From NCBI GenBank assembly GCA_964649095.1, contig CAZYPH010000001.1, forward strand, positions 69,407 to 124,167: DNA of 54,761 bases, read 5' to 3'. The stretch's first letter is position 1. Each line of letters starts with the position of its first letter. The stretch is from an uncultured Oligoflexia bacterium. Lineage in GTDB: Bacteria; Bdellovibrionota; UBA1018; UBA923. The position numbers were made by a program, and so were the translations under genes. The notes under the pieces are model-generated. The model did no database searches, was not told where the DNA came from, and saw nothing but the letters and a program-made list of their open reading frames with translations. This document shows positions 945 through 54,761 of this stretch, in pieces.

Positions 945-1008
945 TGAGTAAAATCAGGTTAACCCTACTTTACTCATGAGTAAAATCGACTTAACCTGAT
1001 TTTACTCA
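945..1008. promoter_or_regulatory. Nested palindrome abutting the start codon of the 1008 gene
   Basis: Perfect 18-bp inverted repeat TGAGTAAAATCAGGTTAA (945-962) / TTAACCTGATTTTACTCA (991-1008). It flanks a perfect 16-bp palindrome TTTACTCATGAGTAAA (969-984). The 8-mer TGAGTAAA occurs four times in alternating orientation. The last base of the right arm is the A of ATG 1008. Confidence 0.6.
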
Positions 1009-5551: not shown

Positions 5552-7552
5552 ATGAATGCTACATCATCTCAACACCGAAAAAATCAGCGAGCTATTCTAA
5601 CTCTTTTGCGCGAATTCTTTATATTTGGGCACGATCTGACGCTGCTCATAGGAAAGGATAGTAAGGCTGTTCATATTGTCGAATTAGATGAGAGTAATCC
5701 CCGAGACCTCACACAATCTCGGGTAATAAAACTCACTTCAAAAAATAATAATTCCACGGACAGTAGAACCATTTCTATCAATGACGTTAGGCAGACGAAC
5801 AAAACCACATCGACTGCAATTCAATTAGAACTCAATAACCATTTTTTTTTAATTCCACTCAATGACTTTTTGAAAGTTAACTCAAATGAATACACTGCAA
5901 CATTTAGCCTGAATGATATTTTAAGCGCAAATCGACGACGACATAAGCGAGCTTCTGAGCCTGCATCATTCTATACGCCAATTTTATTTTACCACGGGGA
6001 TCTAAAAACGTATCCAATACCCGGCTTCGCGCGACTGATCGACTTTGACTCGCACGCCGTATGCGTAAATCTACAATTCTTTACGGTAGTAGAGGAATGT
6101 GAGCTGAAAAACGGCACTCTTCTATTCCAGGAACCATTGCTAGGCCTATATGATCGACAGCAAACGATCGCAAATATTCGCAATTTCTTAAACACTACCC
6201 AAGGGCAATCAACGATCACCAAGGTCGACGCAATTTTAAATGTCAAACGCCTGACCGTTCAGTCTTCAAATATTCCGTCGGTAATTCAACCAAATCGACC
6301 ACTCATGCTAGGGTTCATCTGTCTCTTGCACGAACAAAAAACAATTCATGCGCCCGTTGTCGAATTATTTCGCGATGGCTTTTACATTGATATTTCAGCT
6401 CAGGAGGCCCATTGCCTTCCTTCGCAATTTCAAGTGGATCACGACACCACTAAAATTCGATTTCACGCCATGAAGTTAAATGAACGATTATTTATTAGTT
6501 ATTCTGGCTTAACTTTGGGCAACAAAACAATTTGGTTCAATTTTCTAACTAAGGTGGCACTTGGATACGACCATTGTTTTACGGCAGGGGATTCAAAAAG
6601 AGTCACTCATCTTATGTTTGAGTCGGGCAATTATACATCGAGCGCCCTGCTGCAAATTGCCCTTCTCAACGACGCCTTTCAACACAAATGGCCGCTTGAA
6701 ACCGCCTTTTCACCAACGAAATATCGTTGGTTTGTGCGAAATCAAAATGGCGACTACATAGGTCACACCGCCGCAATACGCGTGTCTGAAAAGTTATGGG
6801 GCGCGATCGACAACATTGGCTCGCAGCAATTCGAAGGTAGCTGGAACGCGCAATTTGTGGCTCGTTTCCTAAGAGCTTTTGCAGAATTAATCGACCACCA
6901 AAATACTGATAGCTATGTGCAGTGGTCATTTGTGCCTTCCGCTGGAGTTTGGCAGAAATTTGATGAGGCCATAAAACGGAGGCCTGAGTTAACTTATACG
7001 CGAGATAGGTTTTGGGTGATGCAAATGCTCAATTATGCGCGCCCCAAAATGAAACCCAAACGTAAATACATCATTCGTCAAACCAACATTGAATCTTTAT
7101 ACACAAACCTAGACTTGATGGATGCGCTCTCCCAAAGCCAAAAGCAATTACTATCGCTTCTTGCTGTAGGTATCCAGCCTGACTCTTCATTTCAGAATGA
7201 TTTTTCTAAGGAGCATGGCTATCAGCTCACCCGATTCTATTATGTTATTGAATGTGCTGAAGTCGGTTCTTTTTTGTTAACGTTTACAAACTATCCGGCG
7301 TGGGCATCTCTACACAAGGGGCATGACTGGGACTATATTTTCCCTTTTTCAATAAGTATTGACCTAAGCGAGGACAGTGAAATTGAACTGCTAGCTGCAA
7401 TTGATGAGACTGTCTTTAAGGCTGGCTGTAGACTTCACGCCTTGGCTATCGTTCATCCAACCCTCCGACTAACACGCGGCGTCTCAATAATAAATTTGAC
7501 GTTACGACCAAGCGCCCTAGCGCTAGCAGCTGAAACAGTGGAGCAACTGTGA
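5552..7552 (+). CDS. 666-aa cytoplasmic protein: YcgR-like PilZN + PilZ-like N-terminal module and a ~430-aa C-terminal region of unknown function
   Basis: aa 14-47 AILTLLREFFIFGHDLTLLIGKDSKAVHIVELDE is PilZN-like. aa 128-133 RRRHKR fits the RxxxR motif. aa 162-170 LIDFDSHAV is a non-canonical version of the (D/N)xSxxG strand. The stop overlaps the next gene's start (GTGA). Confidence 0.65.
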   Translation: MNATSSQHRKNQRAILTLLREFFIFGHDLTLLIGKDSKAVHIVELDESNPRDLTQSRVIKLTSKNNNSTDSRTISINDVRQTNKTTSTAIQLELNNHFFLIPLNDFLKVNSNEYTATFSLNDILSANRRRHKRASEPASFYTPILFYHGDLKTYPIPGFARLIDFDSHAVCVNLQFFTVVEECELKNGTLLFQEPLLGLYDRQQTIANIRNFLNTTQGQSTITKVDAILNVKRLTVQSSNIPSVIQPNRPLMLGFICLLHEQKTIHAPVVELFRDGFYIDISAQEAHCLPSQFQVDHDTTKIRFHAMKLNERLFISYSGLTLGNKTIWFNFLTKVALGYDHCFTAGDSKRVTHLMFESGNYTSSALLQIALLNDAFQHKWPLETAFSPTKYRWFVRNQNGDYIGHTAAIRVSEKLWGAIDNIGSQQFEGSWNAQFVARFLRAFAELIDHQNTDSYVQWSFVPSAGVWQKFDEAIKRRPELTYTRDRFWVMQMLNYARPKMKPKRKYIIRQTNIESLYTNLDLMDALSQSQKQLLSLLAVGIQPDSSFQNDFSKEHGYQLTRFYYVIECAEVGSFLLTFTNYPAWASLHKGHDWDYIFPFSISIDLSEDSEIELLAAIDETVFKAGCRLHALAIVHPTLRLTRGVSIINLTLRPSALALAAETVEQL

Positions 7553-15025: not shown

Positions 15026-16213
15026 ATGATTATTCGAGCCATTGAGGGCACCATTCGCGATGATCTCAATAAAAAAATGGTTTTACTATCCGGTCCTCGC
15101 CAGTGCGGTAAAACCACGTTAGCCAAAAGTTTATTCTCGAATAAAAAATCGACGTATTATAACTGGGACGTCCTCACCCACCGTCGCCTGATACAGCAAG
15201 GCCAACTCGAGACCAACACCACCTACTGGATCTTTGACGAGCTTCATAAATACCATCGATGGAAGAATTGGCTAAAAGGTATCTATGACCTTGAACACAA
15301 AAATCATTCCATACTAGTGACCGGAAGCGCCAACTTACGCGTCTACAGCCGTGGGGGCGACTCTCTACAAGGGCGCTATTTTGCACACCACTTGCACCCC
15401 TTTACGTTACGAGAGGTCACCGGTAGGCCTGCAATTAGTGATCTCGATAGGATACCACTGCTAGATGAGAGCCCGAAGGCAGCCGATCGTAGTTTATTAG
15501 AAGCGCTGCTTCTCTTTGGCGGATTTCCAGAACCCTTTGTATCGCACTCTAAAACCCACGCCGATCGTTGGCGTCTAAGCTACAGTGAACAACTCATACG
15601 CGACGAAATTCGCAATCTAGAATCGTTAAAAGACCTAGACCGCGTTGAACTCCTTTTTGAGCGCCTGACGGAGACTGTTGGCTCTGTATTGTCGATCAAT
15701 AGCCTACGAGAAGACCTAGAAGTAGCATTTAAGTCTGTAAAAAGTTGGATTGATGTCTTCGACAATCTCTATGCCACATTCCGCATCGCACCGTTCGGCA
15801 CACCACGCATCAAAGCGGTCAAAAAGGAGCAAAAACTCTATTTTTGGGACTGGAGTCGCATCGAAGATCCCGCCAAACGTTTTGAAAATGCCATCGCAGC
15901 GCATCTGTTGAGGCTCGTCGACTGGGCGCGCGACACTCAAGGCCAGAAATGGGAACTACGTTATTTTCGTGACATTAACGGCCGAGAAGTCGATTTCATT
16001 ATCCTTCGCAACGCAAAACCGTGGATGGCAATTGAAGTAAAATCCAGCGAAACCAGCGTGAGCCCGCACCTGAAATACCTGTTGGAGCGTGTGAAAATTC
16101 CGCACGCCTTTCAAGTAAGTCTCGATAGTAAAACCGACTGGAAAACAGAACCCATCAATGGCACGGCGATACGGATGACTAGTGCCACACGCTTTCTGCT
16201 AGCTCTAGCTTAG
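15026..16213 (+). CDS. AAA+ ATPase of the AAA_14/DUF4143 family (paralog P4; closest to P1)
   Basis: SGPRQCGKTT, WIFDELHK, LVTGSANLR, KEQKLYFWDWS, REVDFIILRNAKPWMAIEVK (D...ExK). Confidence 0.85.
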   Translation: MIIRAIEGTIRDDLNKKMVLLSGPRQCGKTTLAKSLFSNKKSTYYNWDVLTHRRLIQQGQLETNTTYWIFDELHKYHRWKNWLKGIYDLEHKNHSILVTGSANLRVYSRGGDSLQGRYFAHHLHPFTLREVTGRPAISDLDRIPLLDESPKAADRSLLEALLLFGGFPEPFVSHSKTHADRWRLSYSEQLIRDEIRNLESLKDLDRVELLFERLTETVGSVLSINSLREDLEVAFKSVKSWIDVFDNLYATFRIAPFGTPRIKAVKKEQKLYFWDWSRIEDPAKRFENAIAAHLLRLVDWARDTQGQKWELRYFRDINGREVDFIILRNAKPWMAIEVKSSETSVSPHLKYLLERVKIPHAFQVSLDSKTDWKTEPINGTAIRMTSATRFLLALA

Positions 16214-35798: not shown

Positions 35799-36509
35799 TT
35801 AGTGAAAGGTGGGACCTGTATTTCGTTTGTTAGAATCGGTATTAGACCGATCGGCATTGTGAACCATTTTGAGGTGGTTCGCCTTACGTCGGGTGGTGCC
35901 CTTACCACCGCCGCCTCTTTGGCGGACGCGAGCTAGATAAAGTAAGTAGGCAAAACCGGTGATCATACCGCCTAAGTGACACGCACTGGCCGCCGCTGAG
36001 TTTGAATAAAAGATGGTTGAGATGAATTCAATCGCCCCCAGTAACAATACAAAATATTTAGCTTTTATAGGAAAGAGCATCATAAACAGCATCGTGCGTT
36101 CCGCAAACAAGATGCCGTAGGCCGTTAAAAGACCGTAAATGGCGCCACTTGAGCCTATCATGAGTGCGCCAGTACCCACACCCAACAACGCCAACACGAG
36201 GTAGACCACACCACCCGATAGGGCCGTCAGAGCCGTAAATGATAAAAAGATTTTAGGACCCCAAAGCGCCTCGAGCTCGCTACCGATCATGTAAAAAACA
36301 AGCGCGTTGAATACGAGGTGCATCAATTCGGCATGAAAAAATGGGTACGTGGCTAAACGCCAAAACTGCCAGGGTACTGAGGGCAGCACACCAAAAAATA
36401 AACTCAAAGACTGGCCCACGAGTTTTAATGCCACTAAATCGAGCACGAACAAAACCACTAAAACAATTAACAGACGTTTCACCCAAGGGGTCAGTGGTAT
36501 GGGGGTCAT
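35799..36509 (-). CDS. Rhomboid-family intramembrane serine protease
   Basis: HAELMHLVFN, catalytic GSSGAIYGLL, and HLGGMITG in a polytopic membrane protein. Confidence 0.85.
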   Translation of the reverse strand: MTPIPLTPWVKRLLIVLVVLFVLDLVALKLVGQSLSLFFGVLPSVPWQFWRLATYPFFHAELMHLVFNALVFYMIGSELEALWGPKIFLSFTALTALSGGVVYLVLALLGVGTGALMIGSSGAIYGLLTAYGILFAERTMLFMMLFPIKAKYFVLLLGAIEFISTIFYSNSAAASACHLGGMITGFAYLLYLARVRQRGGGGKGTTRRKANHLKMVHNADRSNTDSNKRNTGPTFH

Positions 36510-36549: not shown

Positions 36550-37011
36550 TTAGGGCGCATTTTTTTGTGCGATCTCTATTAGTATGCCGCCAGTTGAAGT
36601 GGGGTGCAAAAAGTTTACTAAAGTATTGTGGGCACCCGGTTTGGGCTCAGCGTAAATCAAACGCACACCGGCGTTGATAAGGCGCTGCGACATTATTTCG
36701 ATGTCACTAACAACAAATGACAAGTGATGCACACCGGAGCCTTTTTTGGCTAAAAATCGGCGCACGACGTTTTCGGGATTATTAGCCTCGTCCGGCAAGG
36801 TCTCGAGAATTTCAATTTTGGCGCTCGGACCTGGGGTTTTTACAAAGTGTGTCATGACACCCTGACTGGGCACGGCCTCTTGGCCGGCATCTAGAAGATT
36901 GAGAAGACTTAGGACCCGCTTCAATTGTGGAATATTGTCCGTAACGATGGCGATGTGATCTAAATAAATTGTATTTATATTTGGTGTAGTCATGAAACGA
37001 TCGTATACCAC
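36550..37011 (-). CDS. VOC-family enzyme, probably methylmalonyl-CoA epimerase
   Basis: LDHIAIVT..., GVHHLSFVV, GGILIEI. The GTG at 37011 or the ATG at 36993 could be the start. Confidence 0.65.
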   Translation of the reverse strand: MVYDRFMTTPNINTIYLDHIAIVTDNIPQLKRVLSLLNLLDAGQEAVPSQGVMTHFVKTPGPSAKIEILETLPDEANNPENVVRRFLAKKGSGVHHLSFVVSDIEIMSQRLINAGVRLIYAEPKPGAHNTLVNFLHPTSTGGILIEIAQKNAP

Positions 37012-37082: not shown

Positions 37083-39527
37083 CTATAGATTAGGAATAGT
37101 TGGAATACCGCCCGCGCCGCCTGTACCAGGATTGGTTGGGTTCACAGGAGGTGGTGGCGCTGTAACAGCCGGCCCTGAAGCCCCAGGCACACTTATTACA
37201 GGCGGCGTTACTTGTCCGCCAAAACCAATTTGCCCTGCCGCAGAATACGCATACTGTTGATAAATTTGGGCATAACGTGTTTGAAGTTCGGTTGCCTGGG
37301 CGTTGAGCTGCTGCATTTGTTCGGAATAATACGCCGTGCGACGCTGCTGATCTTGTACGGCCGCCATTTGGGCTAGGTAATATTGCTGAGATTGCTGCCA
37401 GCCCTGTTGCATCATTGGATTCATGGGGTTCATGCCACCGTTCACAAAACCAGCCCCGCCGACACCGTAACCTGGCATTCCAGGGAAGTTATTGTAGGCA
37501 CCAGGGAAACCGTTCATACCGATGGGCATACCGCCGGGGAACGTACCCACTGGACCACCAGGGAACGTGCCGGGCCAACCGCCAGCGTTAAAACCGCCGG
37601 GCATCATGCCAGGGAAGCCGGCACCTGGGAAACCAGCGCCGGGAAATCCGGCTCCGGGGAATCCCGCACCTGGGAAACCTACTCCGACGCCGCCGGGTAT
37701 CATAGGCATGCCTGGGTACCCGCCCCCGATGGCTCCGGGGAAACCTCCGTTAAAACCAGCACCAACCCCCGGGAAGCCGCCATTAAAACCACCGGGCATT
37801 ACGCCGGGGAACCCTGCGCCCGGGAAACCAGCTCCAGGAAAACCACCGTTGAAACCAGCGTTAAAACCTCCGGGCATCATGCCAGGGAAGCCCGCGCCCG
37901 GGAAACCAGCTCCAGGAAAACCACCGTTGAAACCGGCATTAAAACCACCGGGCATCATTCCAGGAAAACCGCCGTTAAAACCGGCGCCCATCATACCGGG
38001 CATCATACCTGGGAAGCCGCCATTAAAGCCTGCGCCCATCATTCCAGGAATGCCGCCACCCATCATGCTGGGCATACCCATATAGGCGCCCGCCATGGGG
38101 TAGCCGCCCATCGGAAAGCCGTTAAAACCTGGAGTACCGCCACCGGTAAAATACGGCATGGAGTTCCATGGGCCCGCTACTAGGCCGCCGCCCGCACCGG
38201 GAAACAAACCGCCATTAGGGAACATGCCAGGAAGGCCCACGCCGATGCCACCCGTCCAGCCAAACTGCCCAGCACCGCCATAGGGGTTTAGAGGCATTCC
38301 AAGGCCTGACAAACCACCCAGCATGCCGGGACCACCATAGCCCCCCATCATGGGGCCGCCCAAACCAAAACCGCCACCCACACCGGGGAATACGCCTGGC
38401 ATACCGCCATAGAGGCCGCCCATCATACCTGGGAACATGCCGTTGTAACCAAACGGCGACCCCGTGACGCCCATCCCGGGATATCCCACTCCACCAATGT
38501 ACAGGCCACCGCCAAAACCACCGCCGCCACCCAAGGCGCCCATGAGGCCGCCAAGACCACCCATCATAGCAGCACTTAGGCCGCTACCATACTGGCCCCC
38601 CATCGCACCCATGGGGTTTGGTGGAAAATACGGCACACCCTCAGCGATCGAGTTCTGCATGTATTGGTTGTACGAATTTGTATAATTTTGTTGGGCCGTC
38701 TGAAAATTGCGGTAGCCCAAGTACGAATTAAGGCCACCTAAAATCATCGACCCACCCAAACCGATACCTTGCATAACGCGCTCGAAAGTCGATGGCTGGC
38801 GCGGGGTCAACTGGATGCCATACACGTCTTGAATACGCTGCAACTCGGTAGTGGTGCGTTCTCGCGCCGCACAATCGGGACAGTTCGTATTGACTTCTTC
38901 TAATTCGGTTTCAAGCGATGTGATGCGCTCGGTAGCTTCTTCTAACTCGGATTCGATTTCGCGGATGCGGGCCTGCTTCGCGCGGATTTGAACTTGGTTG
39001 TCGACTTTGTAACAGCGCATGATGTCGGCGCGTGTATCAGCGCCCTGTGCCAAATCGAGACAAGGTTGTTTCTGAAAAATCTTTAAACAAATATCAGCCT
39101 GAGAAGGTGATCCCACATAACATAAATTACCTCGAGAGCCGGGTGGCGTTCCAGACACTGCTGATGCAGGTGAAGGAGACGGGTCCTCTTTACATTCACT
39201 GCCGGTCACAGGCTCCATATTACAAAGACGCGCATGTCTTTGACAGGCATCAACGTTACAATCGGTCTGCTCGCCAACAGGGGCGGTAGCGGATTGTAGT
39301 CGTCGAACCTCACGTTGTAGCCTCGATTTTTCTTGGCGTAAGTTGGTTTGGCTTTGGCGTGTTTCGCGCATCTCGCGATTGACGCGTCGGTATTCGGTAA
39401 GATTCGTAGCGTGCGCCGTCAGCGGCACTACTAAAAACAGCAACGCTGCTCGAAAAGTAGCTGCCATGGCCAATCTATAACGATCGGCATTTGTATTGTG
39501 TGGTTTAGTCTCGGTATGATTTTTCAT
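37083..39527 (-). CDS. 814-aa secreted protein: signal peptide, coiled-coil/Cys-containing N-terminal third, ~430-aa uncharged Gly/Pro/Met/Phe-rich repeat region, Gln-rich coiled C-terminus
   Basis: Signal-like AALLFLVVPLTAHA. Heptad-like LRQEKSRLQREVRRLQ and IESELEEATERITSLETELEE. Repeats GFPGAGFPGAGFPGMMPGGFNAGFNGG. I found no D/E/K/R between about aa 297 and 725. Confidence 0.8.
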   Translation of the reverse strand: MKNHTETKPHNTNADRYRLAMAATFRAALLFLVVPLTAHATNLTEYRRVNREMRETRQSQTNLRQEKSRLQREVRRLQSATAPVGEQTDCNVDACQRHARLCNMEPVTGSECKEDPSPSPASAVSGTPPGSRGNLCYVGSPSQADICLKIFQKQPCLDLAQGADTRADIMRCYKVDNQVQIRAKQARIREIESELEEATERITSLETELEEVNTNCPDCAARERTTTELQRIQDVYGIQLTPRQPSTFERVMQGIGLGGSMILGGLNSYLGYRNFQTAQQNYTNSYNQYMQNSIAEGVPYFPPNPMGAMGGQYGSGLSAAMMGGLGGLMGALGGGGGFGGGLYIGGVGYPGMGVTGSPFGYNGMFPGMMGGLYGGMPGVFPGVGGGFGLGGPMMGGYGGPGMLGGLSGLGMPLNPYGGAGQFGWTGGIGVGLPGMFPNGGLFPGAGGGLVAGPWNSMPYFTGGGTPGFNGFPMGGYPMAGAYMGMPSMMGGGIPGMMGAGFNGGFPGMMPGMMGAGFNGGFPGMMPGGFNAGFNGGFPGAGFPGAGFPGMMPGGFNAGFNGGFPGAGFPGAGFPGVMPGGFNGGFPGVGAGFNGGFPGAIGGGYPGMPMIPGGVGVGFPGAGFPGAGFPGAGFPGAGFPGMMPGGFNAGGWPGTFPGGPVGTFPGGMPIGMNGFPGAYNNFPGMPGYGVGGAGFVNGGMNPMNPMMQQGWQQSQQYYLAQMAAVQDQQRRTAYYSEQMQQLNAQATELQTRYAQIYQQYAYSAAGQIGFGGQVTPPVISVPGASGPAVTAPPPPVNPTNPGTGGAGGIPTIPNL
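37816..37971. repeat. Tandem 78-bp (26-codon) repeat inside the Gly-rich gene, with more degenerate copies on both sides
   Basis: Units start at 37816 and 37894 (GCGCCCGGGAAACCAGCTCCAGGAAAACCACCGTTGAAACC...), roughly 90% identical by eye. They encode GFPGMMPGGFNAGFNGGFPGAGFPGA. Confidence 0.8.
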
Positions 39528-39774
39528 CTTAAAACGTCCTTATTTTAAGCAGGCGTATCAACGTTAATTGTGAACCAAGTTTACAAAATTAGCGAGAGGA
39601 GAAGCGGCGGAGCCAAAACACACTTTCACGCCACTAGGTATTTTTTTCGCATCGCGCTGAACCTAACCAAACCTCGTCGCACAAAAGATTTAATATATTT
39701 AAAAGCCGGAATATGCATTTTTCTAAATATTAATAGCCGTTTCAAATTAATAAACTTTCTCGTATTGTGAAAAC

Positions 39775-41511: not shown

Positions 41512-42762
41512 CTATGGTTTTAGGATCAGCTTAGAATTCCGCTTTATCAATTTTGTATAATATTTTTGAATAGCGTAGACACTCGCGCATTCGCCATATT
41601 GATTCTTGAAGCGATCGATCGACTCTTCAACGGCCCCGGGTAACTTTCGTATTATGTCGCGAACAAGCTCCATATACGCCGCCGGACTGACCCTAGATAA
41701 CGAAAAAACTGCTTGCCAGTGAGATGGCAAAACAGTTCCTGAGTCAAACTGCCCTGCGACTGCCATCGCCAACTTATGACTGAGATTGGGGTAAAAACGC
41801 GTCGCTACCAAATCATAGAACGGCGCCAATCGCCATCGCCCCGCACTACTTCTTAAGAGGGACAGATTTTTAGCGTGGCCATCACAATTTCCGGTTAAGA
41901 CATTGAGAATTTGCCATTTTAAAATAGCATCGAGATCCTCAACTACCGAATCCGAGCGTTCTTCGATCAAACGACAACAGTCGATAAAACTCGGCCCGCC
42001 CTCAGTTTCATACTTGCGTTGATACGGAACCGCTAGGGCCTGACAAAAGTCCTCTTGATGGAGTCGACTCCACTGACCATTAATCTGTTGGCGGTCATAG
42101 CGGCCAACCACAAGAACAAAATTTTCACCTATTTTGACCAACTCAGCGTCGACTGTTGGAACCCCTAGTGCTGCGTACACTTGGGTTTGAATCCATTCAT
42201 TCTCAGGAACCCTCTGAAATCTGCGCGGGTTTGGTTTTAAGATATGCGTCGTAGGCTGGAAGCCTAAAGGTCGGTAGAAACGTTTGTGTTTATATATCAA
42301 TGGAAGTTTATTTTGGGCCCCTGCAAGAGAAAAACGTAGGCCACCCTTGAGCTGTAAACTCAAGATACCTGCGGAGTCATTCTTAAACCATGCCGCCAAC
42401 ATCGCAGTTGAAACTTCCTCTAAATCACTTTTTTCAGTCGAATCGTGCTCCTCATTTGTAATGACCAAAGCGCCCGCACAGTCGTGACCTATGCGCAGCA
42501 ACAACTCAAAATCATTGTCTACTGAAATGCCAAGCTTTTGACACAAAGCGCTTCGCGGATTGCCTTCTGGTAAAAGATTTCCAAAAAAAATTTGAGCCTC
42601 TCGGTGGTACACTCGAGAATCTTTCTTTAACGAGGCTGAAATCGCGAAACCCTCGTCAGAATCTAACCACTGCTGCGAGTACTGAAAACAAAACCCATCC
42701 TGCGTTTCATCTAGGACCCCAACCAGTTGGGGTGGAGACCAAACCCATAAGCGACGTTTCAC
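41512..42762 (-). CDS. hipA: Type II toxin HipA-family serine/threonine kinase
   Basis: DCAGAL, SLAGAQNKLPL, catalytic-loop NCDGHAKNLSL. 4-nt overlap with the upstream HTH gene. Confidence 0.9.
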   Translation of the reverse strand: MKRRLWVWSPPQLVGVLDETQDGFCFQYSQQWLDSDEGFAISASLKKDSRVYHREAQIFFGNLLPEGNPRSALCQKLGISVDNDFELLLRIGHDCAGALVITNEEHDSTEKSDLEEVSTAMLAAWFKNDSAGILSLQLKGGLRFSLAGAQNKLPLIYKHKRFYRPLGFQPTTHILKPNPRRFQRVPENEWIQTQVYAALGVPTVDAELVKIGENFVLVVGRYDRQQINGQWSRLHQEDFCQALAVPYQRKYETEGGPSFIDCCRLIEERSDSVVEDLDAILKWQILNVLTGNCDGHAKNLSLLRSSAGRWRLAPFYDLVATRFYPNLSHKLAMAVAGQFDSGTVLPSHWQAVFSLSRVSPAAYMELVRDIIRKLPGAVEESIDRFKNQYGECASVYAIQKYYTKLIKRNSKLILKP

Positions 42763-45296: not shown

Positions 45297-45959
45297 ATGT
45301 CGATCGAGATGATTCAAATTCGAAAAAGTTTTGGAGAACCGCCAACGCACGTACTGAAAGGCATTGATGGAAATATTCAAAATGGCGAGATGATTTCGAT
45401 TGCCGGGCGCTCAGGCTCGGGCAAAAGCACGCTACTTTATATTATTAGTAGCCTTGATCGCCCCACATCAGGCGAAGTGCGTGTGGATGGTATTTCGTTA
45501 GCGAGTTTAGATTCGACGCAATTGCACCAGTTTCGTAACCAAAAAATGGGTTTCGTATTTCAATTCCACCATCTATTGCCCGAGCTGACGGCTTTGGAAA
45601 ATATTTTGATGCCGACGCTTAAATCAGATAGCGATTTTGACTTTAAATCGCGCGCGCACGGTCTACTTAGTGAGTTCGGATTAGAAGACAAATGGAATCG
45701 CATTCCAAGCAAACTCTCTGGCGGCGAACAACAACGTGTTGCTATTGCACGGGCGCTGATCATGAACCCGCCGATCGTATTTGCCGATGAACCCACGGGC
45801 AACTTAGATTCGGTCAATGCTGAAATTGTGATGAAACTATTTTTACGCATCAATCAAGAGCGTGGCACGACGATCGTGTACGTGACGCACGACCATGAGT
45901 TTGCACGTATGGCGTCGCGACAGATACAACTTATTGATGGCGTTGTGGTGCATGGGTAA
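45297..45959 (+). CDS. ABC transporter ATP-binding protein (MacB/LolD-like)
   Basis: GRSGSGKST, LSGGEQQRVAIARA, VFADEPTGNLD. ATG 45297 is preferred over TTG 45282. Confidence 0.9.
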   Translation: MSIEMIQIRKSFGEPPTHVLKGIDGNIQNGEMISIAGRSGSGKSTLLYIISSLDRPTSGEVRVDGISLASLDSTQLHQFRNQKMGFVFQFHHLLPELTALENILMPTLKSDSDFDFKSRAHGLLSEFGLEDKWNRIPSKLSGGEQQRVAIARALIMNPPIVFADEPTGNLDSVNAEIVMKLFLRINQERGTTIVYVTHDHEFARMASRQIQLIDGVVVHG

Positions 45960-45964
45960 AAAGC

Positions 45965-47113
45965 TTAACCTTTGAAGCAGTGGGCTAGGCTGTGCACGGA
46001 ATACACATAGATATTTTTCTCGAGTTTATAATCTTTTTTTCCAGGATAAATCACCACGAGCCTATCGAGATTTAACAACTCGCGCGCCATTACCATCGAT
46101 TTTGTCATCACTGGAGCGTCTTGATATTTGATTTCAAAACCAATTTTTTTACCGCCTTTCAGAACCAAAAGATCTAACTCTGCCTGAGCGTGCACACTCC
46201 AAAAATAACACTCTTCGAGTTGGTGCATTTGTATGAGCTGCTCTAACACAAACCCCTCCCACGACGCGCCTAACTTTGGATGGGTCACTAACTGCTTTTT
46301 ATTTTCTAAAGTCAAAAGCGTATGCAAAATACCGCTGTCGCGAAAATAGATTTTGGGGCTCTTCACTTGACGCTTCGCAATGTTTGCATACCAAGGCTTA
46401 AGCTCACGCACCATGAAGGTACCAACCAAGATATCGAGATATTTTCGCACCGTGGGATGCGTGAGTTGTAGTGATTGACCCAACTCGGACGCATTAAAAA
46501 TTTGCCCATGATGGTGCGTCAACATCTGCCAAAAGCGCCTCATGTGATTGGCGGGAATTTGAAAACCCAATTGAGGAATATCTCGTTCGAGATACGTTGA
46601 GATATATTCATTTCTCCAGATATAACTTTTCTTCTCGGTAGTCGCGAGATACGACACGGGAAAACCACCCCGCAGCCATAACCTTTCTATTCTATCATCG
46701 CCGGTCTCTTGAAGAGAAAATGGGGCCACTTCGATATAGGAAATACGTCCAGCCAATGTCTCGGTAGATTGCTGTATGAGCTCACGCGACGCACTGCCTA
46801 AGATTAGAATTTTTCGTTTTCGTTGATGGAGATCGATGTAACTACGCAGGTACGCAAACAATTCTGGCAGTCGTTGCACTTCATCAATGACGATTAACGA
46901 TTTTGACGTGGCATTTTCTAACGCCATGATCGGATTTTGTAGTCTTGCTAAGTCGACTGGGTTTTCTAGATCAAAAAAATCGACCTCTTTAAATTTTTTT
47001 GAGTAGTGGCGCGCAATGGTAGTCTTTCCGGATTGCCGCGGCCCCAATAGAGCCACTACCGGATGCATGGCAAAGGCATCTTGAATTTTCTTAAGTAGTT
47101 TTTTTCTTTCCAC
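45965..47113 (-). CDS. AAA+ ATPase of the AAA_14/DUF4143 family (paralog P5)
   Basis: LGPRQSGKTT, IVIDEVQR, LILGSASRE, AELDLLVLKGGKKIGFEIK (D...ExK). GTG start. Confidence 0.85.
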   Translation of the reverse strand: MERKKLLKKIQDAFAMHPVVALLGPRQSGKTTIARHYSKKFKEVDFFDLENPVDLARLQNPIMALENATSKSLIVIDEVQRLPELFAYLRSYIDLHQRKRKILILGSASRELIQQSTETLAGRISYIEVAPFSLQETGDDRIERLWLRGGFPVSYLATTEKKSYIWRNEYISTYLERDIPQLGFQIPANHMRRFWQMLTHHHGQIFNASELGQSLQLTHPTVRKYLDILVGTFMVRELKPWYANIAKRQVKSPKIYFRDSGILHTLLTLENKKQLVTHPKLGASWEGFVLEQLIQMHQLEECYFWSVHAQAELDLLVLKGGKKIGFEIKYQDAPVMTKSMVMARELLNLDRLVVIYPGKKDYKLEKNIYVYSVHSLAHCFKG

Positions 47114-47228: not shown

Positions 47229-48500
47229 TCAATACTTTGACTTTGTGGCCATGTGACCGCAAAACCAGGCTGCCACAGCCAATAGGCAGAGGCTGGAATA
47301 GACCGACAGATAGTCGTGTTTGAAAAGATCGGGATAGATTTGGTCACTGATCAAATTATGCCCGGGCTCGGCCGTCGTACCTATGACACCGGCGGCAATT
47401 ACTGTTGAGACACTGAACAGCAGACTAAGCAAAAATAACGGACTGATCTGGGGCTCTTTCAAATTTACGAACCCCACACTTAAAAATGGCAACATCGGAA
47501 TCAGATAACGTGGGCCAATACACCAGCCCCCGTGCCATTGGTTGAAACAGACGTTAAAACCCACAAAAACACATACAACCGAAAATGCTAGCCAGACTTC
47601 TTCACGGCGCGTTCCCTGACGCAACAAACGCCCCATACCAAGCACAGCAAAAATCAAAACGGGTGACAGTATAAAAAGGCCCTTTTTAAAATCGAAAAAT
47701 AAATCCCAAAACACTTTTAATTTAGGTGTGCCCAGAACGCCAAAAAGTTTAGGTCCGAGATCGCGAAACTCTGGATTTTGATACACTTGTGGCAACGTCA
47801 AATACCCGCCAAAACAAGACTTATGATAGAGACCAAACAAGAAAAGACCAGGCAGCCCACCGAGAGCAAACAGTACTAACGCGCGCGCACCAAAACGGCG
47901 CAAGAGCACGATAATAAAAAATGGAATCGTAAAGGCACACGAGTATTCGGTGAGGACGGCAGCGCTCATCCAAAACCCACTCCACAACGGCGACGTTCTT
48001 TGTACGAGCGCAAAATAGGCAAAAAACAAAAACGCTGCAGCCGTTTGGTGGCCCCAAATAGAATACGCATACGGCAGCGCCATCGTACCCAGCGAATAAG
48101 CGATGGTGGCATACATAGCCGTCATAGGTGTCGTTCGAGCCAGTAGAAAAAAGAAAAAAACGACCGCCAACGCAACAGCTGGAACGACCGAGACAAAAAA
48201 ATTAGTAAACCGCTCTTCACGAATCCAACGCGACAACCGCAACGTTCTCGACAACGCCAGTGCCGGCACCCCGAGGAGTGACACACCCGGAGCTTTATTC
48301 GAATAATAATGGCCATCATACAACGACCAATCGGGCGTGGCCTCGGGCGCTAAACCATCGATACTAAAAACGCCTCGCGAAACAATCGAGTCGGTCACAG
48401 CAAAACGTGTGAGTTGGTTCACACCTCCATGACCAGGACCAAACGCATACACAGCCAGAACAAAACAAAAAAACGCGATAAACCATCGTGAAATCGGCAT
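47229..48500 (-). CDS. Polytopic membrane protein, GT-C-fold glycosyltransferase-like (ArnT/PMT-like)
   Basis: More than 10 hydrophobic helices. First loop DSIVSRGVFSIDG...YDGHYYSNKAPG. Start taken at MPISRWF (48500). Confidence 0.55.
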   Translation of the reverse strand: MPISRWFIAFFCFVLAVYAFGPGHGGVNQLTRFAVTDSIVSRGVFSIDGLAPEATPDWSLYDGHYYSNKAPGVSLLGVPALALSRTLRLSRWIREERFTNFFVSVVPAVALAVVFFFFLLARTTPMTAMYATIAYSLGTMALPYAYSIWGHQTAAAFLFFAYFALVQRTSPLWSGFWMSAAVLTEYSCAFTIPFFIIVLLRRFGARALVLFALGGLPGLFLFGLYHKSCFGGYLTLPQVYQNPEFRDLGPKLFGVLGTPKLKVFWDLFFDFKKGLFILSPVLIFAVLGMGRLLRQGTRREEVWLAFSVVCVFVGFNVCFNQWHGGWCIGPRYLIPMLPFLSVGFVNLKEPQISPLFLLSLLFSVSTVIAAGVIGTTAEPGHNLISDQIYPDLFKHDYLSVYSSLCLLAVAAWFCGHMATKSKY

Positions 48501-48642
48501 GTTTTTTAACGTAGTGCTTCGAGCATTTAATGAAAAGTGAACTCTTAAAAATATTGAAAGACTCAAAGTGCGCCATGCATCGCGCCATAAACTAAGATTA
48601 TTTACCTCTTAACCAAACCAGACCTTCATGCCACCATAAATC

Positions 48643-50880
48643 ATGTTTAAAAAATCCGTTTTCAAATCACTGGCGCTGTCATTAGTGGTTTGCGTTTGTG
48701 CGACGTGGGGCTTTGCCGAACCGGCAGTTTACATTCTAGATACACCCACACTGAACAGTCTCGAAGGTGCAGGCTTTAGTTTAAATGAAACTCTAGGGCA
48801 GACGAAATCACTCAGCCGCACGTCCGATCTGTACAAAACAAACGAAGCCTATCGTAGTTTTGCAGAGACCATCGGTAAATCACTTCCGCATGATGCTACA
48901 ACAGATCAGCTTCCTGATACGATTCCAGAGAACGCAGGCGACGTGCCCGACATGGTGCGGCGATTACGTGGTTTCGAAGATAAAGGATCTCGATCAGACA
49001 AAGATCTCAAGGGCGGCTTCATCATTCGTCGCACGGCCAACAATTCACAGTACCCCTATTTAGTAGAACGCGACGGTGACGAGCCACGCCACTTTGATAC
49101 CCGTTGGCTGAACTCGGACTACGCCTACATGAAGTTGATTGCCATCGCCAACCGCATGGACCGCAAAGACATTACAAAAGACTCTTGCGGTGAGGTCCGC
49201 TTTCTTTATCGATTGAGTTATAAATCGAAAAAATCGAGTTCGAGTCTACCGTTTTTTGTAAACGTGGTGCATCAGTATCCGAAACAAGAGACCTGCGCGG
49301 GTTTTGCCAAATCGTGGAATGTATCCACAACCGACGCCACAGCATTAAGAAGTGGCCCCTTAAAAAATCTTTCGCTCCGACAACTCGAAGTTAATTTTCA
49401 ATCGCTGCGCTTTACGTCGGGTTACATGCACGATTTTGGTGGTCAGGCCATGTACATGCAGCGCGTATTTCGCAAAAAAGGCTCGAGACTTGAACCGGTC
49501 GAGCTTGAGAACACCCCCGATGTTCTTGCGATCAAAAATGATCCGGCCCTATTAAAACAATTTGTTGAATATTTGAAGAAGCCCGAGAACCTCACCCGAC
49601 TAGATAACGGTGTTTTGAACATCAATTTTGATCCAAAGTTTTTGGCCAAGTTTTCTGTCTCCTGGTCGACATTGGGGCGAGCCCGAACAGCGAATCGCCC
49701 CTACACCGAAATATTCCGTGAGAATCGTGCTCTCGTTGAATCGATTAATATATCAAAATTAAAATATATAAAAAACCATGACGCACTCGTAGAACGACTG
49801 AACAATATGACGTGTATGGGTTGCCATCAGGCTGGTGGCACGGCGGGCTTTCATGTGCTCGGCAAGGCGGATGACGCGTTTTCGCATCCGTTCAATCGGC
49901 AAGAGCAAGCCCTGTCTCCGCACGCTACCGCCGAGATTTCGCGAAGAGTGGCGTGGTTAAAAAAAGTGGCTGCTGGTGAAGAGCCCAATCCCTTTCGACA
50001 GCACTCCACATTTTCAAGTGCGGACTGGGGTACGATTTCCGGCATTCCGAAATTCTCGAATTTAAACGTCGGTCAGCTCTGTTTTGCTGAAGCCGACACG
50101 TTTTCTCAGCAACCGGTTTGTGGCGATGCAAATGGCCGCGCGGTCGCGTGTCAAAAGACGGTATCTACGTTTGGGAAAAACGTCTTATTAGGTGAATGCG
50201 TTTTAAAAGAAGTGGTACGTGCCGCTGGGCATGCCTGTTGGAAGGGCGAAATTATAGAAAGTACCGAGAGTCTAATGACACACCCTGAGCGCCATCCCCC
50301 TAGCTTTAACTTCTTTGCCTTCGAAGATAAGTGGAAACTTTCAGGCGAAATTTTTAAAGATGCTAAACCCTATGGGTGTGTGCTGCCGCAAAGCGGTGCC
50401 CCACTGGGCCGCATGAGTCGGCGGTGTTCGTTAGAAGAAGAAAACTTCGAAGTCGACTTCAGCAAAGGCATTCCCGACGAACTTTGCGCCAATCAAGGTG
50501 GTTCTGGTTTTGATATGTGCGCGGCGAGTGGCGACTCTGGCGCCTGTCTTGAAACAAAAGTGGCGCGGTCGATGCTCGACACCTGCAGTGAAACGCGCTT
50601 TTGTCGTGAAGATTACATCTGTCAGAAATTTCCCGACTACCACAAGATCAGCGAAAAAGATTACGTACGGAAAAAGGGCGACCAACTGATTAACGTGAGC
50701 CACCCTTCGAAGATTCGTGGTGACGCGCTGGCAGAAGCGCGTCGGCGGGGCATTGGCTTTTGTGTCCCTACCTATTTTCTTTTCAACATGCGGTTAGATG
50801 GCCATCCAAGCCCTATCACGGGGCTTGCACCAGGCGAGCCTAAGTATGATCGCAGCCAACCACTTCGGGGGTACCAATGA
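48643..50880 (+). CDS. 745-aa secreted Cys-rich protein of unknown function with a single CXXCH motif
   Basis: Signal peptide MFKKSVFKSLALSLVVCVCATWGFA. CMGCH at aa 391-395 (nt 49813-49827). Many Cys in the C-terminal 260 aa. ATGA overlap with the next gene. Confidence 0.75.
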   Translation: MFKKSVFKSLALSLVVCVCATWGFAEPAVYILDTPTLNSLEGAGFSLNETLGQTKSLSRTSDLYKTNEAYRSFAETIGKSLPHDATTDQLPDTIPENAGDVPDMVRRLRGFEDKGSRSDKDLKGGFIIRRTANNSQYPYLVERDGDEPRHFDTRWLNSDYAYMKLIAIANRMDRKDITKDSCGEVRFLYRLSYKSKKSSSSLPFFVNVVHQYPKQETCAGFAKSWNVSTTDATALRSGPLKNLSLRQLEVNFQSLRFTSGYMHDFGGQAMYMQRVFRKKGSRLEPVELENTPDVLAIKNDPALLKQFVEYLKKPENLTRLDNGVLNINFDPKFLAKFSVSWSTLGRARTANRPYTEIFRENRALVESINISKLKYIKNHDALVERLNNMTCMGCHQAGGTAGFHVLGKADDAFSHPFNRQEQALSPHATAEISRRVAWLKKVAAGEEPNPFRQHSTFSSADWGTISGIPKFSNLNVGQLCFAEADTFSQQPVCGDANGRAVACQKTVSTFGKNVLLGECVLKEVVRAAGHACWKGEIIESTESLMTHPERHPPSFNFFAFEDKWKLSGEIFKDAKPYGCVLPQSGAPLGRMSRRCSLEEENFEVDFSKGIPDELCANQGGSGFDMCAASGDSGACLETKVARSMLDTCSETRFCREDYICQKFPDYHKISEKDYVRKKGDQLINVSHPSKIRGDALAEARRRGIGFCVPTYFLFNMRLDGHPSPITGLAPGEPKYDRSQPLRGYQ

Positions 50881-54706: not shown

Positions 54707-54761
54707 TGGCGTCCCCACGGGGATTCGAACCCCGGTTACCGCCGTGAAAGGGCGATGTCCT
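54707..54761 (-). tRNA. tRNA-Glu (anticodon UUC), 3' 55 nt; the 5' part lies beyond the window
   Basis: The reverse complement AGGACATCGCCCTTTCACGGCGGTAACCGGGGTTCGAATCCCCGTGGGGACGCCA contains the anticodon loop CTTTCAC, the T-arm CGGGG-TTCGAAT-CCCCG, acceptor strand and CCA. It is near-identical in layout to the E. coli tRNA-Glu as I remember it. Confidence 0.85.

What the first reader, a model, noticed from the sequence alone, without database searches (positions are those of the whole stretch)
37413..38630. About 430 consecutive residues without a single charged amino acid: a secreted Gly/Pro/Met/Phe-rich, elastomer-like or FG-like bacterial protein
Between about aa 297 and 725 of the 814-aa protein I found no D, E, K or R. 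The stretch consists of G, P, M, F, A, N, Y, V repeats (GFPGAGFPGAG, GMMPGGFNAGFNGG, GGLGGLMGALGGGGGFGGG). It is flanked by a signal peptide plus a coiled-coil/Cys-containing N-terminal third and a Gln-rich heptad-like C-terminus ending in a Pro-rich tail. The composition recalls animal elastomeric proteins (abductin is Gly/Met/Phe-rich; elastin has PG repeats) and cohesive FG domains. This is analogy, not homology. In a periplasmic or surface location it could form a gel, mesh or phase-separated layer anchored by the coiled coils.
Basis: partly seen in the sequence, partly recalled or inferred. Interest (0 to 1): 0.65.

Follow-up and report, generated by a model that had tools for sequence, protein, structure and literature searches.

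The report
Charge-free glycine-rich secreted bacterial protein
A real, transcribed and conserved gene of uncultured wastewater and groundwater bacteria encodes an exported protein whose central ~430 residues contain no charged amino acid; its make-up resembles animal rubber-like proteins and nuclear-pore gel domains, which I have not found described for a bacterial envelope, but its function is only inferred.

Summary
ORF 37083-39527 (-) encodes 814 aa, and residues 297-725 (429 aa) have no D, E, K, R, H or C (G 37%, P 13%, M 10.5%, F 9.6%).

It is a real gene. An exhaustive profile search of 1.84 billion representative proteins found a tiny, unnamed family. At least seven full-length members share one architecture:
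- a Sec signal peptide;
- a helical hairpin with a 10-Cys tip;
- a 240-440 aa charge-free Gly/Pro/Met/aromatic region;
- a Gln/Tyr-rich helix and a Gly/Pro/Thr tail.

The repeat units differ in every ortholog, yet composition is held constant (charged 0-1.2%, aromatics 12-15.5%).

Within the species, 38 of 40 variants are synonymous and length variants are in frame. Seven metatranscriptomes hold its RNA; none holds the length-matched neighbour bamA. AlphaFold gives pLDDT below 50 for residues 303-707.

The gene heads a co-directional envelope-biogenesis array (lol, bamA, skp, lpx). In six genomes it is followed by a glyoxalase-like gene and a rhomboid protease gene.

My best reading (about 0.4) is a cohesive, elastic disordered network in the periplasm or at the surface, cross-linked by the helical modules. 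It resembles FG domains and elastomers physically but belongs to neither family. Localisation and material behaviour are untested.

The parts
37083..39527 (-). Whole gene, 814 aa plus stop. ATG at 39527-39525; AAGGA ribosome-binding site at 39541-39537.
   Evidence: Homologues with the same architecture.
39717..39745 (-). Sigma-70-like promoter match (TTGAAA-17-AAAAAT) in the 247-nt divergent intergenic region. Weak consensus match only.
   Evidence: The number of matches in the region is no higher than in shuffles.
39408..39527 (-). Signal peptide, aa 1-40: basic n-region, hydrophobic AALLFLVVPL, then T-A-H-A|T. No lipobox Cys and no twin-arginine motif.
   Evidence: AxA-type sites occur at the equivalent place in most homologues.
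39291..39407 (-). Helix 1 of the hairpin, aa 41-79, highly charged.
   Evidence: AF2 pLDDT 91-98. Sub-threshold DivIC coiled-coil hit.
39012..39275 (-). Cys-rich tip, aa 85-172. Six Cys are kept across the N-domain alignments (C90, C95, C102, C147, C156, C172: all invariant in A5; four invariant and two near-invariant in A4); C112 and C136 are present in most. The window protein has a low-confidence insert at aa 105-141.
38820..39011 (-). Helix 2 of the hairpin (aa 173-215), the CPDC motif (C216, C219), and helix 219-236.
   Evidence: AF2 pLDDT 96-98. CPxC is conserved in most members.
38640..38801 (-). Conserved R-x-P-S-T-F-E motif, a Gly-rich hydrophobic island (aa 250-272), and a Gln/Asn/Tyr-rich helix (aa 273-296).
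   Evidence: A crude Hessa-scale sum gives +4 to +6 kcal/mol, so it is not a clear membrane helix.
37353..38639 (-). Charge-free low-complexity region, aa 297-725 (429 aa). Predicted disordered.
38490..38582 (-). Conserved island inside the low-complexity region, aa 316-346 (glycine-zipper-like GGLGGLMGALGG...GGGLYIGG). It carries the 19-nt, nearly all synonymous allele patch.
38151..38294 (-). Second conserved island, aa 412-459 (NPYGG..G.TGGIGVGLPGMFPNGGLFPGAGGG..GPWNSMPY). Shared with P0001, P0003, L004 and L005.
37612..38042 (-). Tandem-repeat core (DNA periods 15, 48 and 78 nt; 76-89% matches) encoding GFPGA, GFNGG and PGMMPGG units. A population variant with an in-frame loss of 54 nt lies at 37892-37978.
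37251..37418 (-). Gln/Tyr-rich C-terminal helix, aa 704-759, with the conserved WQ.SQQYY ... YYS.. ... RY.Q.. motifs.
37086..37250 (-). Gly/Pro/Thr-rich tail, aa 760-814, uncharged and predicted disordered. It ends in Leu; 5 of 7 full-length relatives end in Phe.
36550..37011 (-). Conserved downstream neighbour: Glyoxalase_4 (VOC) protein. It lies 0-72 nt after the target in six genomes and is probably co-transcribed.
35799..36509 (-). Conserved downstream neighbour: rhomboid intramembrane serine protease.

Best explanation
The gene encodes a well-transcribed, Sec-exported envelope protein built from three kinds of module.

1. An N-terminal antiparallel alpha-helical hairpin. Its tip is stapled by about four disulfides and it ends in a CPxC motif.
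2. A charge-free, intrinsically disordered region of about 430 residues. It consists of Gly/Pro spacers carrying a constant density of aromatic (F/Y/W, about 14%) and Met (about 10%) side chains.
3. A Gln/Tyr-rich amphipathic helix followed by a Gly/Pro/Thr tail.

Proposed mechanism (inferred): the helical modules oligomerise and act as anchors or cross-links. The uncharged regions stick to each other through aromatic and methionine contacts. Their high Gly+Pro content keeps them disordered and non-amyloid. Together they would form a cohesive, hydrated, elastic network (gel or elastomer) in the periplasm or on the cell surface of a diderm, LPS-making bacterium.

Shown here: the composition and its conservation, purifying selection, in-frame repeat turnover, transcription, predicted disorder, signal-peptide and Cys patterns, and the genomic context.

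Inferred only: the compartment, self-association, material properties and physiological role.
For: Composition is selected, not sequence.
- Seven full-length members have charge-free regions of 237-439 aa with 0-3 charged residues. Across them G is 30-44%, P 7-14%, M 8-15%, F+Y+W 12.3-15.5% and FILVM 22-28%.
- Their repeat units are unrelated: GFPGA/GFNGG, GYGMPPGMGMG, GGGYPMM, GGSPF and others.

Purifying selection.
- 38 of 40 population variants are synonymous.
- A second assembly of the same species has 0 differences in 4959 nt of flanking genes. It has 19 differences in the low-complexity region, 17 at third codon positions, with a single V347A change.
- Length variants are in frame: +54 aa in L012 versus P0002 and -54 nt in run X6.

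Expression. 7 RNA runs from 3 studies hold 100%-identical fragments. No RNA run holds words of the equally long bamA.

Export.
- AxA signal-peptidase sites are found in most members.
- An even set of 10 Cys is conserved in the N-domain.
- Extra Cys pairs occur in the C-terminal tails of P0001, P0004 and L005.
- No segment after the signal peptide scores as a membrane helix.

Disorder. AF2 gives pLDDT below 50 and no secondary structure for aa 303-707. The hairpin helices have pLDDT above 90.

Physical plausibility.
- Charge depletion plus hydrophobic stickers is what makes Nup98 FG domains phase-separate. Those have about 2.5% charged residues and FILVM 13-17% (PMC4283134). This region is even less charged and more hydrophobic.
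- Gly+Pro content is in the range reported for elastomeric rather than amyloid proteins (PMC5424786). 2P+G is 0.61-0.70 in 6 of 7 members; the 0.6 line is recalled from Rauscher et al. 2006 and was not verified here.

Context. The gene heads a 22-kb co-directional array of outer-membrane biogenesis genes: lolCD, bamA, skp, lpxD/A/B/K and a heptosyltransferase.
Against: - No experiment or proteomic evidence is available. Localisation is inferred from sequence rules only; no dedicated signal-peptide or topology predictor was run.
- The conserved Gly-rich hydrophobic island (aa 250-272) could be a weak membrane helix, which would put the low-complexity region in the cytoplasm.
- P0003 falls below the Gly+Pro line (2P+G 0.43).
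- Conserved sequence islands inside the low-complexity region (aa 316-346, 412-459) suggest specific partners or structure, not only bulk material behaviour.
- The RNA evidence rests on assembled contigs of metatranscriptomes, without strand or depth information.
- Co-location with envelope-biogenesis genes is weak evidence, because the order of these housekeeping genes is inherited within the lineage.
Confidence: 0.4

Rival explanations
1. Type I membrane protein. After signal-peptide cleavage, the conserved Gly-rich hydrophobic segment (aa 250-272) acts as a stop-transfer helix. The Cys-rich hairpin is then periplasmic. The charge-free region and the Gln-rich helix are cytoplasmic and form a membrane-attached condensate or scaffold. 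The adjacent rhomboid protease might cleave this helix, which is rich in helix-destabilising residues.
For: - The segment is conserved, uncharged and about 22 residues long. It is flanked by R-x-P-S-T-F-E-[KR] and G-Y-[KR].
- AF2 draws it as a helix.
- A rhomboid gene follows the target in six genomes.
- Short family members stop just before this segment.
Against: - The Hessa-scale sum for the segment is +4 to +6 kcal/mol, against +1 to +4 for the signal peptides. The Kyte-Doolittle mean is only 0.87.
- Paired Cys in the C-terminal tails of three orthologues fit an oxidising compartment.
- AF2 confidence for aa 255-272 is below 50.
- Synteny with the rhomboid gene may simply be inherited gene order.
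Confidence: 0.12
2. Methionine-based buffer. The exported Met-rich region serves as a sacrificial sink for oxidants (HOCl, H2O2), repaired by periplasmic methionine sulfoxide reductases. Alternatively it acts as a sponge for soft metal ions (Cu(I), Ag(I)) through MM, MxM and MxxM motifs.
For: - Met is 8-15% of the region in all seven members.
- Met-pair motifs occur at 2.6-5.5 per 100 residues.
- From my own knowledge, not checked here: periplasmic Met-rich scavenger peptides (MrpX) and Met-motif Cu(I) sites (CusF, Ctr1, CueO/PcoA loops) exist.
Against: - No msrP/Q, cop, cus or pco genes were seen in the window or in the related loci.
- No His, Cys or Asp accompany the Met residues.
- The longest repeat arrays of the window protein (GFPGAG) and of L004 (GGSPF) lack Met.
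- A sink does not explain the equally constant aromatic and Gly/Pro content, nor the helical end modules.
Confidence: 0.1
3. ATP-independent periplasmic holdase. The flexible Gly/Met/Phe-rich region binds unfolded outer-membrane proteins or lipoproteins in transit. This would be analogous to the GGM tails of GroEL and the G/F and G/M regions of Hsp40.
For: - Gly-Met-rich tails of chaperonins and the G/M region of Sis1 are known elements of chaperone systems (titles and abstracts only: PMC11978752, PMC12615815, PMC11722011). That they contact clients is my own knowledge.
- The gene lies in one array with lolCD, bamA and skp.
Against: - The resemblance is purely compositional, and the known elements are 13-80 residues long, not 430.
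- Strong cohesiveness would compete with client binding.
- Rapid repeat turnover and length polymorphism fit a bulk material better than a chaperone.
Confidence: 0.07
4. Non-functional or unconstrained repeat expansion: a junk low-complexity insert in an otherwise ordinary coiled-coil protein, or a mis-called ORF.
For: Tandem DNA repeats are present, and assemblies break inside the gene.
Against: - The region is present and charge-free in all full-length members despite 22-32% identity in the N-domain.
- Composition is held within narrow limits.
- 38 of 40 and 18 of 19 variants are synonymous.
- Indels are in frame.
- RNA was detected.
Confidence: 0.02

Closest known systems
Cohesive FG-repeat domains of Nup98-type nucleoporins (GLFG domains)
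   Same: Both are several hundred residues of predicted disorder, almost devoid of charged residues (Nup98 about 2.5%, here 0%). Both have regularly spaced aromatic 'stickers' in Gly-rich uncharged spacers. In both, composition is conserved more than sequence, and the domain is attached to structured anchoring modules. The homologue in L004 carries about 26 tandem GGSPF units.
   Different: There is no homology. This protein is bacterial and Sec-exported. Its spacers are Gly/Pro/Met/Ala rather than Ser/Thr/Asn/Gln. FILVM is 22-28% against 13-17%. The window protein has few true FG dipeptides (0.9 per 100 residues), with Phe mostly in GF-P/N contexts. No transport receptors or pore scaffold are known.
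Abductin (bivalve hinge-ligament elastomer)
   Same: Both are secreted (signal peptide) and rich in Gly, Met and Phe with few charges. Both have a Cys- or Tyr-bearing N-terminal part and a presumed random-coil repeat domain.
   Different: Abductin is about 116 aa and is built from GGFGGMGGGX decapeptides, with about 58% Gly and 1% Pro (PMC9999432). This region is 429 aa, with 37% Gly and 13% Pro, and has different repeats. There is no homology.
Elastin and other Pro/Gly-rich elastomers (resilin, flagelliform silk)
   Same: High combined Pro+Gly content with hydrophobic side chains. Repeats contain PG and GXG. Predicted disorder. Terminal modules could act as cross-links.
   Different: No VPGVG, GPGGX or resilin-type repeats. 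No Lys for lysyl-oxidase-type cross-links. The candidate cross-linking modules sit only at the two ends rather than alternating along the chain.
Gly/Met-rich chaperone elements (GroEL (GGM)4M tail; Sis1/DnaJB G/F and G/M regions)
   Same: Uncharged, flexible Gly/Met(/Phe) sequence in bacteria.
   Different: Those elements are cytoplasmic, 13-80 residues long and part of ATP-driven chaperone systems. This region is exported and 430 residues long.
Extended periplasmic proteins with low-complexity regions (TonB, TolA) — comparison from my own knowledge, not checked here
   Same: Envelope proteins with long non-globular regions anchored at the ends.
   Different: TonB and TolA regions are highly charged (Pro-Glu/Pro-Lys; Ala/Lys/Glu). 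This region has no charge at all and is expected to be cohesive rather than extended and repulsive.

Membership tests
FG nucleoporin cohesive domain | Dense FG motifs (GLFG, FxFG, PSFG and similar; several per 100 residues) | tested here: not met
   The window protein has 0.9 FG per 100 residues, although G[FYW] is 8.9 per 100. L004 has 6.5 FG per 100 residues.
FG nucleoporin cohesive domain | Extreme depletion of charged residues in a long disordered domain | tested here: met
   0 charged residues in 429 aa. Across 7 members, 0-1.2%. AF2 pLDDT is below 50 for aa 303-707.
FG nucleoporin cohesive domain | Homology to, or anchorage in, a nuclear pore scaffold; binding of transport receptors | tested here: not met
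   No Pfam, NCBIfam, PDB or Foldseek relation. The gene is bacterial and has a signal peptide. Receptor binding cannot be tested with these tools.
Abductin | Tandem GGFGGMGGGX decapeptides, about 58% Gly and about 1% Pro | tested here: not met
   Repeat units here are GFPGA, GFNGG and PGMMPGG. Gly is 37% and Pro 13%. Abductin values are from PMC9999432.
Elastomeric proteins (Pro/Gly composition rule) | Combined Pro and Gly content above the elastomer/amyloid threshold | tested here: met
   2P+G is 0.62 for the window protein and 0.61-0.70 in 6 of 7 members; P0003 is 0.43. The concept is from PMC5424786. The numerical line 0.6 is recalled, not verified.
Elastomeric proteins (Pro/Gly composition rule) | Covalent or physical cross-links and reversible elasticity | not testable with these tools
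DivIC/FtsB septum initiator (PF04977) | Pfam score above the gathering cut-off | tested here: not met
   22.5 bits against a cut-off of 28.9, aa 29-79 only. This is a generic match to a hydrophobic segment followed by a coiled coil.
Glycine-zipper 2TM outer-membrane lipoproteins (SlyB/Rick_17kDa type) | Match to the Pfam glycine-zipper models; lipobox | tested here: not met
   No Pfam hit even at E up to 10 for the aa 243-346 fragments of three members. There is no Cys at the signal-peptide cleavage site.
GlyGly-CTERM / rhombosortase substrates | C-terminal Gly-Gly motif, membrane helix and basic cluster | tested here: not met
   The C-terminus is an uncharged Gly/Pro/Thr tail without a hydrophobic helix or basic residues. 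The neighbouring protease matches the general Rhomboid model.
Met-motif Cu(I)-binding regions (CueO/PcoA loops, CusF, Ctr1 Mets motifs) | MxM/MxxM motifs with copper-homeostasis gene context | tested here: inconclusive
   The motifs are present at 2.6-5.5 per 100 residues. No cop, cus or pco genes are nearby. Metal binding cannot be tested here.

The most novel reading that the evidence does not exclude
Bacteria of this lineage build an extracytoplasmic, membrane-less protein phase. This would be a charge-free, FG-like or elastomer-like gel in the periplasm or on the surface, cross-linked by disulfide-stapled coiled-coil modules. It would give the envelope elasticity or a selective, protease- and charge-insensitive barrier. 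That would be a convergent bacterial counterpart of nuclear-pore FG phases and animal elastomers.
Probability: 0.3. Interest if true: 0.85.

Novelty: new variant of a known kind. Interest (0 to 1): 0.65.

Why it matters
Charge-depleted, aromatic-studded disordered domains are the material basis of the nuclear-pore barrier and of animal rubber-like proteins. I found no bacterial exported protein of this type in the family libraries or in the literature searches.

A conserved, selected and transcribed example opens several lines of work:
- It would extend condensate and elastomer biology to the bacterial envelope, a compartment without ATP.
- It offers a natural sequence series, with different repeats but the same composition, for testing sticker-and-spacer rules.
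- It may provide a new recombinant biomaterial.

There is also a practical point. The 429-residue region has no Lys or Arg, so it yields no tryptic peptides. Proteins of this kind are therefore nearly invisible to standard proteomics.

Tried and rejected
Searches that gave nothing useful:
- Pfam and NCBIfam gave only sub-threshold coiled-coil matches or nothing.
- The PDB sequence search returned only chance matches to Fab heavy chains, E at least 0.18.
- Foldseek of the N-domain model against the PDB gave only generic helical hairpins (Vipp1/PspA and similar), E at least 0.076.
- The word-indexed protein search found one homologue with the whole protein, none with the N-terminal 317 aa alone, and only P0009 with the 12-sequence profile. 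No source names any member.
- The first genome scan (A1) chose poor patterns and confirmed nothing. A five-sequence alignment was too divergent to scan. The second scan (A3) gave L003-L005.
- L006 (Berkelbacteria) is a spurious 16-residue match and was not recovered by the family profile.
- The metagenome scan added only L012.
- Contigs of the short-form members are too short to give context.
- The glycine-zipper idea found no Pfam support.
- Rfam found no RNA element near the gene.
- The family profile found no paralogue in the window or the loci.
- The exact window protein is not in the gene-position index.

Taxonomy could not be resolved. The only label available is the NCBI title 'Deltaproteobacteria bacterium' on the related groundwater MAGs.

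Ideas considered and set aside:
- Tat export: there is no twin-arginine motif.
- Lipoprotein: there is no lipobox.
- Coding on the + strand: contradicted by the homologues and by the third-position variant pattern.
Full report
**1. The observation**

The finding lies in ORF 37083..39527 on the minus strand. It encodes 814 aa, starts at an ATG, and has an AAGGA ribosome-binding site 9 nt upstream.

Translation shows charged residues at E296 and D726 and none between them. Residues 297-725 (429 aa, window 37353..38639) lack D, E, K and R, and also H and C. The composition of this run is G 36.8%, P 13.1%, M 10.5%, F 9.6%, A 6.8%, N 4.9% and Y 3.7%. The commonest pentapeptides are GFPGA (x10), GFNGG (x6) and FPGMM (x5).

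This is far beyond chance. The rest of the protein is 20% charged, which gives P about 10^-41.6 for 429 charge-free residues. The next-longest charge-free run among 42 window ORFs is 50 aa, in a polytopic membrane protein.

**2. It is a real gene under selection**

*Homologues.* A word-indexed search found one homologue, P0001 (876 aa). A profile of the two sequences was then scored against all 1.84 billion representative proteins. Only 16 hits reached E below 0.001.

- Four hits are full-length proteins with the same architecture (P0001-P0004).
- Two are truncated (P0011, P0015).
- Seven are short proteins of 165-235 aa that consist only of the signal peptide and the N-terminal module.
- The other three hits (P0008, P0014, P0016) matched only profile positions inside the repeat region and were not retrieved or examined.

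Genome and metagenome scans added L005 (902 aa), L004 (689 aa), a partial copy in L003, and L012 (693 aa). None carries a Pfam domain or a source name.

*Composition is conserved, sequence is not.* In seven full-length members the central region is 237-439 aa long and has 0-3 charged residues, mostly at its edges. The ranges are narrow: G 30-44%, P 7-14%, M 8-15%, F+Y+W 12.3-15.5% and FILVM 22-28%.

The repeat units themselves are unrelated:

- GFPGA/GFNGG in the window protein;
- GYGMPPGMGMG in P0001;
- GGGYPMM in P0002;
- GMGxGYGMS in P0003;
- GGGGIIVGGGGGFPGG..MMPPMYPGG in P0004;
- GYPGMGMG and GGGYPGFGGGFP in L005;
- about 26 tandem GGSPF in L004.

Composition is therefore conserved while sequence turns over.

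*Variation within species.* P0002 and the L012 protein are identical except for an in-frame block of 54 aa of repeats. For the window species itself:

- Metagenome contigs show 40 listed single-nucleotide variants, of which 38 are synonymous and 2 conservative (Y604F, V347A).
- One in-frame variant loses 54 nt at 37892-37978.
- A second assembly, L013, has no difference in 4959 nt of four flanking genes. It has 19 differences in codons 310-361, of which 17 are at third positions and one changes an amino acid.

This is strong purifying selection on the low-complexity region. It also confirms the minus-strand frame.

*Transcription.* Seven RNA (metatranscriptome) runs from three studies hold 108-259-nt contigs that are 100% identical to the gene. 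In the same runs, no genuine contig lies on the other roughly 17 kb examined; the only other piece is a 37-nt match at 45712-45748 in X26, which I take to be chance. As a control I queried the equally long neighbour bamA (2445 nt), and no RNA run holds it.

**3. Anatomy**

*N-terminus.* It has a basic n-region, a hydrophobic core and T-A-H-A|T. Equivalent AxA sites occur in most relatives. There is no lipobox and no twin-arginine motif.

*N-terminal module.* AlphaFold2 with a 12-sequence alignment predicts, with pLDDT above 90, two long antiparallel helices (36-79 and 173-215). They bracket a Cys-rich tip at aa 85-172. Six Cys (C90, C95, C102, C147, C156, C172) are invariant in the 12-sequence N-domain alignment; in the 14-sequence alignment four are invariant and two near-invariant. 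Most members have exactly ten Cys, including a CPxC motif right after helix 2. Foldseek finds no specific fold relative.

*Linker elements.* Next come a conserved R-x-P-S-T-F-E motif, a Gly-rich hydrophobic island (aa 250-272) and a Gln/Asn/Tyr-rich helix.

*Charge-free region.* It contains two conserved islands. The first is aa 316-346 (GGLGGLMGALGG...GGGLYIGG). The second is aa 412-459 (NPYGG...TGGIGVGLPGMFPNGGLFPGAGGG..GPWNSMPY). AlphaFold2 on the full length gives pLDDT of about 30 and no secondary structure for aa 303-707.

*C-terminus.* A Gln/Tyr-rich helix (704-759) carries the conserved WQ.SQQYY and YYS..(x)..RY.Q.. motifs. An uncharged Gly/Pro/Thr tail follows. In 5 of 7 full-length relatives this tail ends in Phe, and in three it carries extra Cys pairs.

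**4. Context**

The gene is the first of a 22-kb co-directional array: glyoxalase-like (VOC) gene, rhomboid, trxB, lysS, lolC, lolD, bamA, skp, lpxD, lpxA, lpxB, lpxK, a lipid A acyltransferase, DUF3108, a heptosyltransferase and rpsA (skp is assigned by its position in the window and its match to the OmpH gene of L001). Upstream, a PlsB-like acyltransferase is transcribed divergently.

The trio target, glyoxalase, rhomboid is kept in six genomes: the window, L001, L002/L012, L003, L005 and L008. This holds even where the outer flanks differ. Two members (L004, L007) sit elsewhere.

The neighbours are 74-78% (TrxB) and 60-67% (LysS) identical between these genomes. The target N-domain is only 22-32% identical. 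It therefore evolves much faster than the housekeeping genes next to it.

The organism is uncultured. Its DNA occurs in wastewater and activated-sludge metagenomes. The related MAGs are titled 'Deltaproteobacteria bacterium'. I could not place it more finely.

**5. How it most likely works**

*Shown:* an exported-type leader, an even and conserved Cys set, predicted disorder, constant sticker density, selection and transcription.

*Inferred:* the whole mature protein is outside the cytoplasm. The helical hairpin and the C-terminal helix oligomerise and serve as anchors or cross-links. The charge-free regions cohere through aromatic and Met contacts. The high Gly+Pro content keeps them disordered.

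Two published comparisons make this physically plausible.

- Nup98 FG domains have about 2.5% charged residues and FILVM 13-17%, and they phase-separate spontaneously (PMC4283134). This region has no charges and FILVM 28%.
- Elastomeric proteins are separated from amyloid-formers by high Pro+Gly content (PMC5424786). 2P+G is 0.61-0.70 in six of seven members. The 0.6 line is from memory.

I put about 0.4 on a cohesive, elastic network in the periplasm or at the surface.

*Rivals:*

- A type I membrane protein with a cytoplasmic low-complexity region, possibly a rhomboid substrate (0.12). The hydrophobic island scores +4 to +6 kcal/mol on a crude Hessa sum, so it is a poor membrane helix.
- A Met-based oxidant or Cu(I) buffer (0.10).
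- A holdase resembling the GroEL GGM tails (0.07).
- Unconstrained repeats (0.02), contradicted by section 2.

The remaining probability is 'something else', for example a secreted adhesive or coat component.

**6. Comparison with what is known**

It works most like a cohesive FG domain or a Pro/Gly elastomer, but it is a member of neither.

- FG-motif density is not met in the window protein (0.9 per 100 residues).
- Abductin's decapeptide and its 58% Gly / 1% Pro composition are not met.
- No homology to any family was detected.
- The sub-threshold DivIC hit is a generic coiled-coil match.

**7. Verdict**

This is a genuine, rare, unnamed protein family with an extreme and evidently selected composition, in an envelope context. 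Its function is unproven. I rate it a new variant of a known physical kind (cohesive or elastomeric low-complexity protein) in a setting where I found none described. Interest 0.65.

Noticed in passing
L004:9383-11452: A family member from a groundwater MAG carries about 26 perfect tandem GGSPF units. This is a true FG-type repeat, in a genomic context that lacks the glyoxalase and rhomboid neighbours.
   Followed up: partly
window 38445-38598 (codons 310-361): Two alleles differ at 19 of about 155 nt, nearly all synonymously, while 4959 nt of flanking genes are identical between assemblies. All four DNA runs examined carry the non-window allele. This could be a recombination or gene-conversion tract, or a strain chimera in one of the assemblies.
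   Followed up: partly
L001:7422-7904, L005:12215-12640, L008:6590-6952, L012:9901-10389: A small gene sits on the opposite strand between the glyoxalase and rhomboid genes in four related loci; it has weak PilZ hits in L001 and L008 and is assigned by position in L005 and L012. It is absent from the window, where the gap is only 40 nt.
   Followed up: no
window 17732-39527 (- strand): A 22-kb co-directional array of envelope-biogenesis genes headed by the target: rhomboid, trxB, lysS, lolCD, bamA, skp, lpxD/A/B/K, a lipid A acyltransferase, DUF3108, a heptosyltransferase and rpsA.
   Followed up: partly
window 1008-2186, 2305-3501, 3981-5201, 15026-16213, 45965-47113: Five paralogous AAA_14 ATPase genes in one 55-kb window; four also carry DUF4143 (3981-5201 matched AAA_14 only).
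   Followed up: no
window 5552-7552, 7549-10293, 47229-48566, 48643-50880: Four large ORFs (666, 914, 445 and 745 aa) without family matches. The first three gave no Pfam hit; the fourth gave no NCBIfam hit and was not scanned against Pfam.
   Followed up: no
window 41512-42762 (-): A HipA-family toxin kinase gene (HipA N-terminal domain, YjjJ-like) lies next to the divergent acyltransferase gene. No partner antitoxin was looked for.
   Followed up: no
window 37383-38183 and 37522-38085 (+): Long + strand ORFs (266 and 187 aa, Pro/Lys/Gly-rich) overlap the repeat region. They are frame artefacts of the repeats, not genes.
   Followed up: yes
window 54710-54761 (-): The 3' part of a tRNA gene is cut off by the end of the window (Rfam 33.7 bits). 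ARAGORN does not call it.
   Followed up: no
P0005, P0006, P0007, P0009, P0010, P0012, P0013: Stand-alone short proteins (165-235 aa) consist only of the signal peptide, the helical hairpin, the Cys-rich tip and (except in P0006 and P0013) the CPxC motif. The N-terminal module is therefore an independent unnamed periplasmic domain family.
   Followed up: partly
C-termini of P0001, P0002, P0003, L004, L005: Five of seven full-length relatives end in Phe after a Gly/Thr-rich tail; the window protein ends in Leu and P0004 in Val. This is reminiscent of C-terminal signals read by outer-membrane assembly or PDZ proteases. It remains unexplained.
   Followed up: no
L012:6502-7005 (-): A 167-aa Cys/Tyr/Gln-rich putative lipoprotein lies just upstream of the target homologue. 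A 167-aa gene is called at the same relative position in L002 (7144-7647, -).
   Followed up: no
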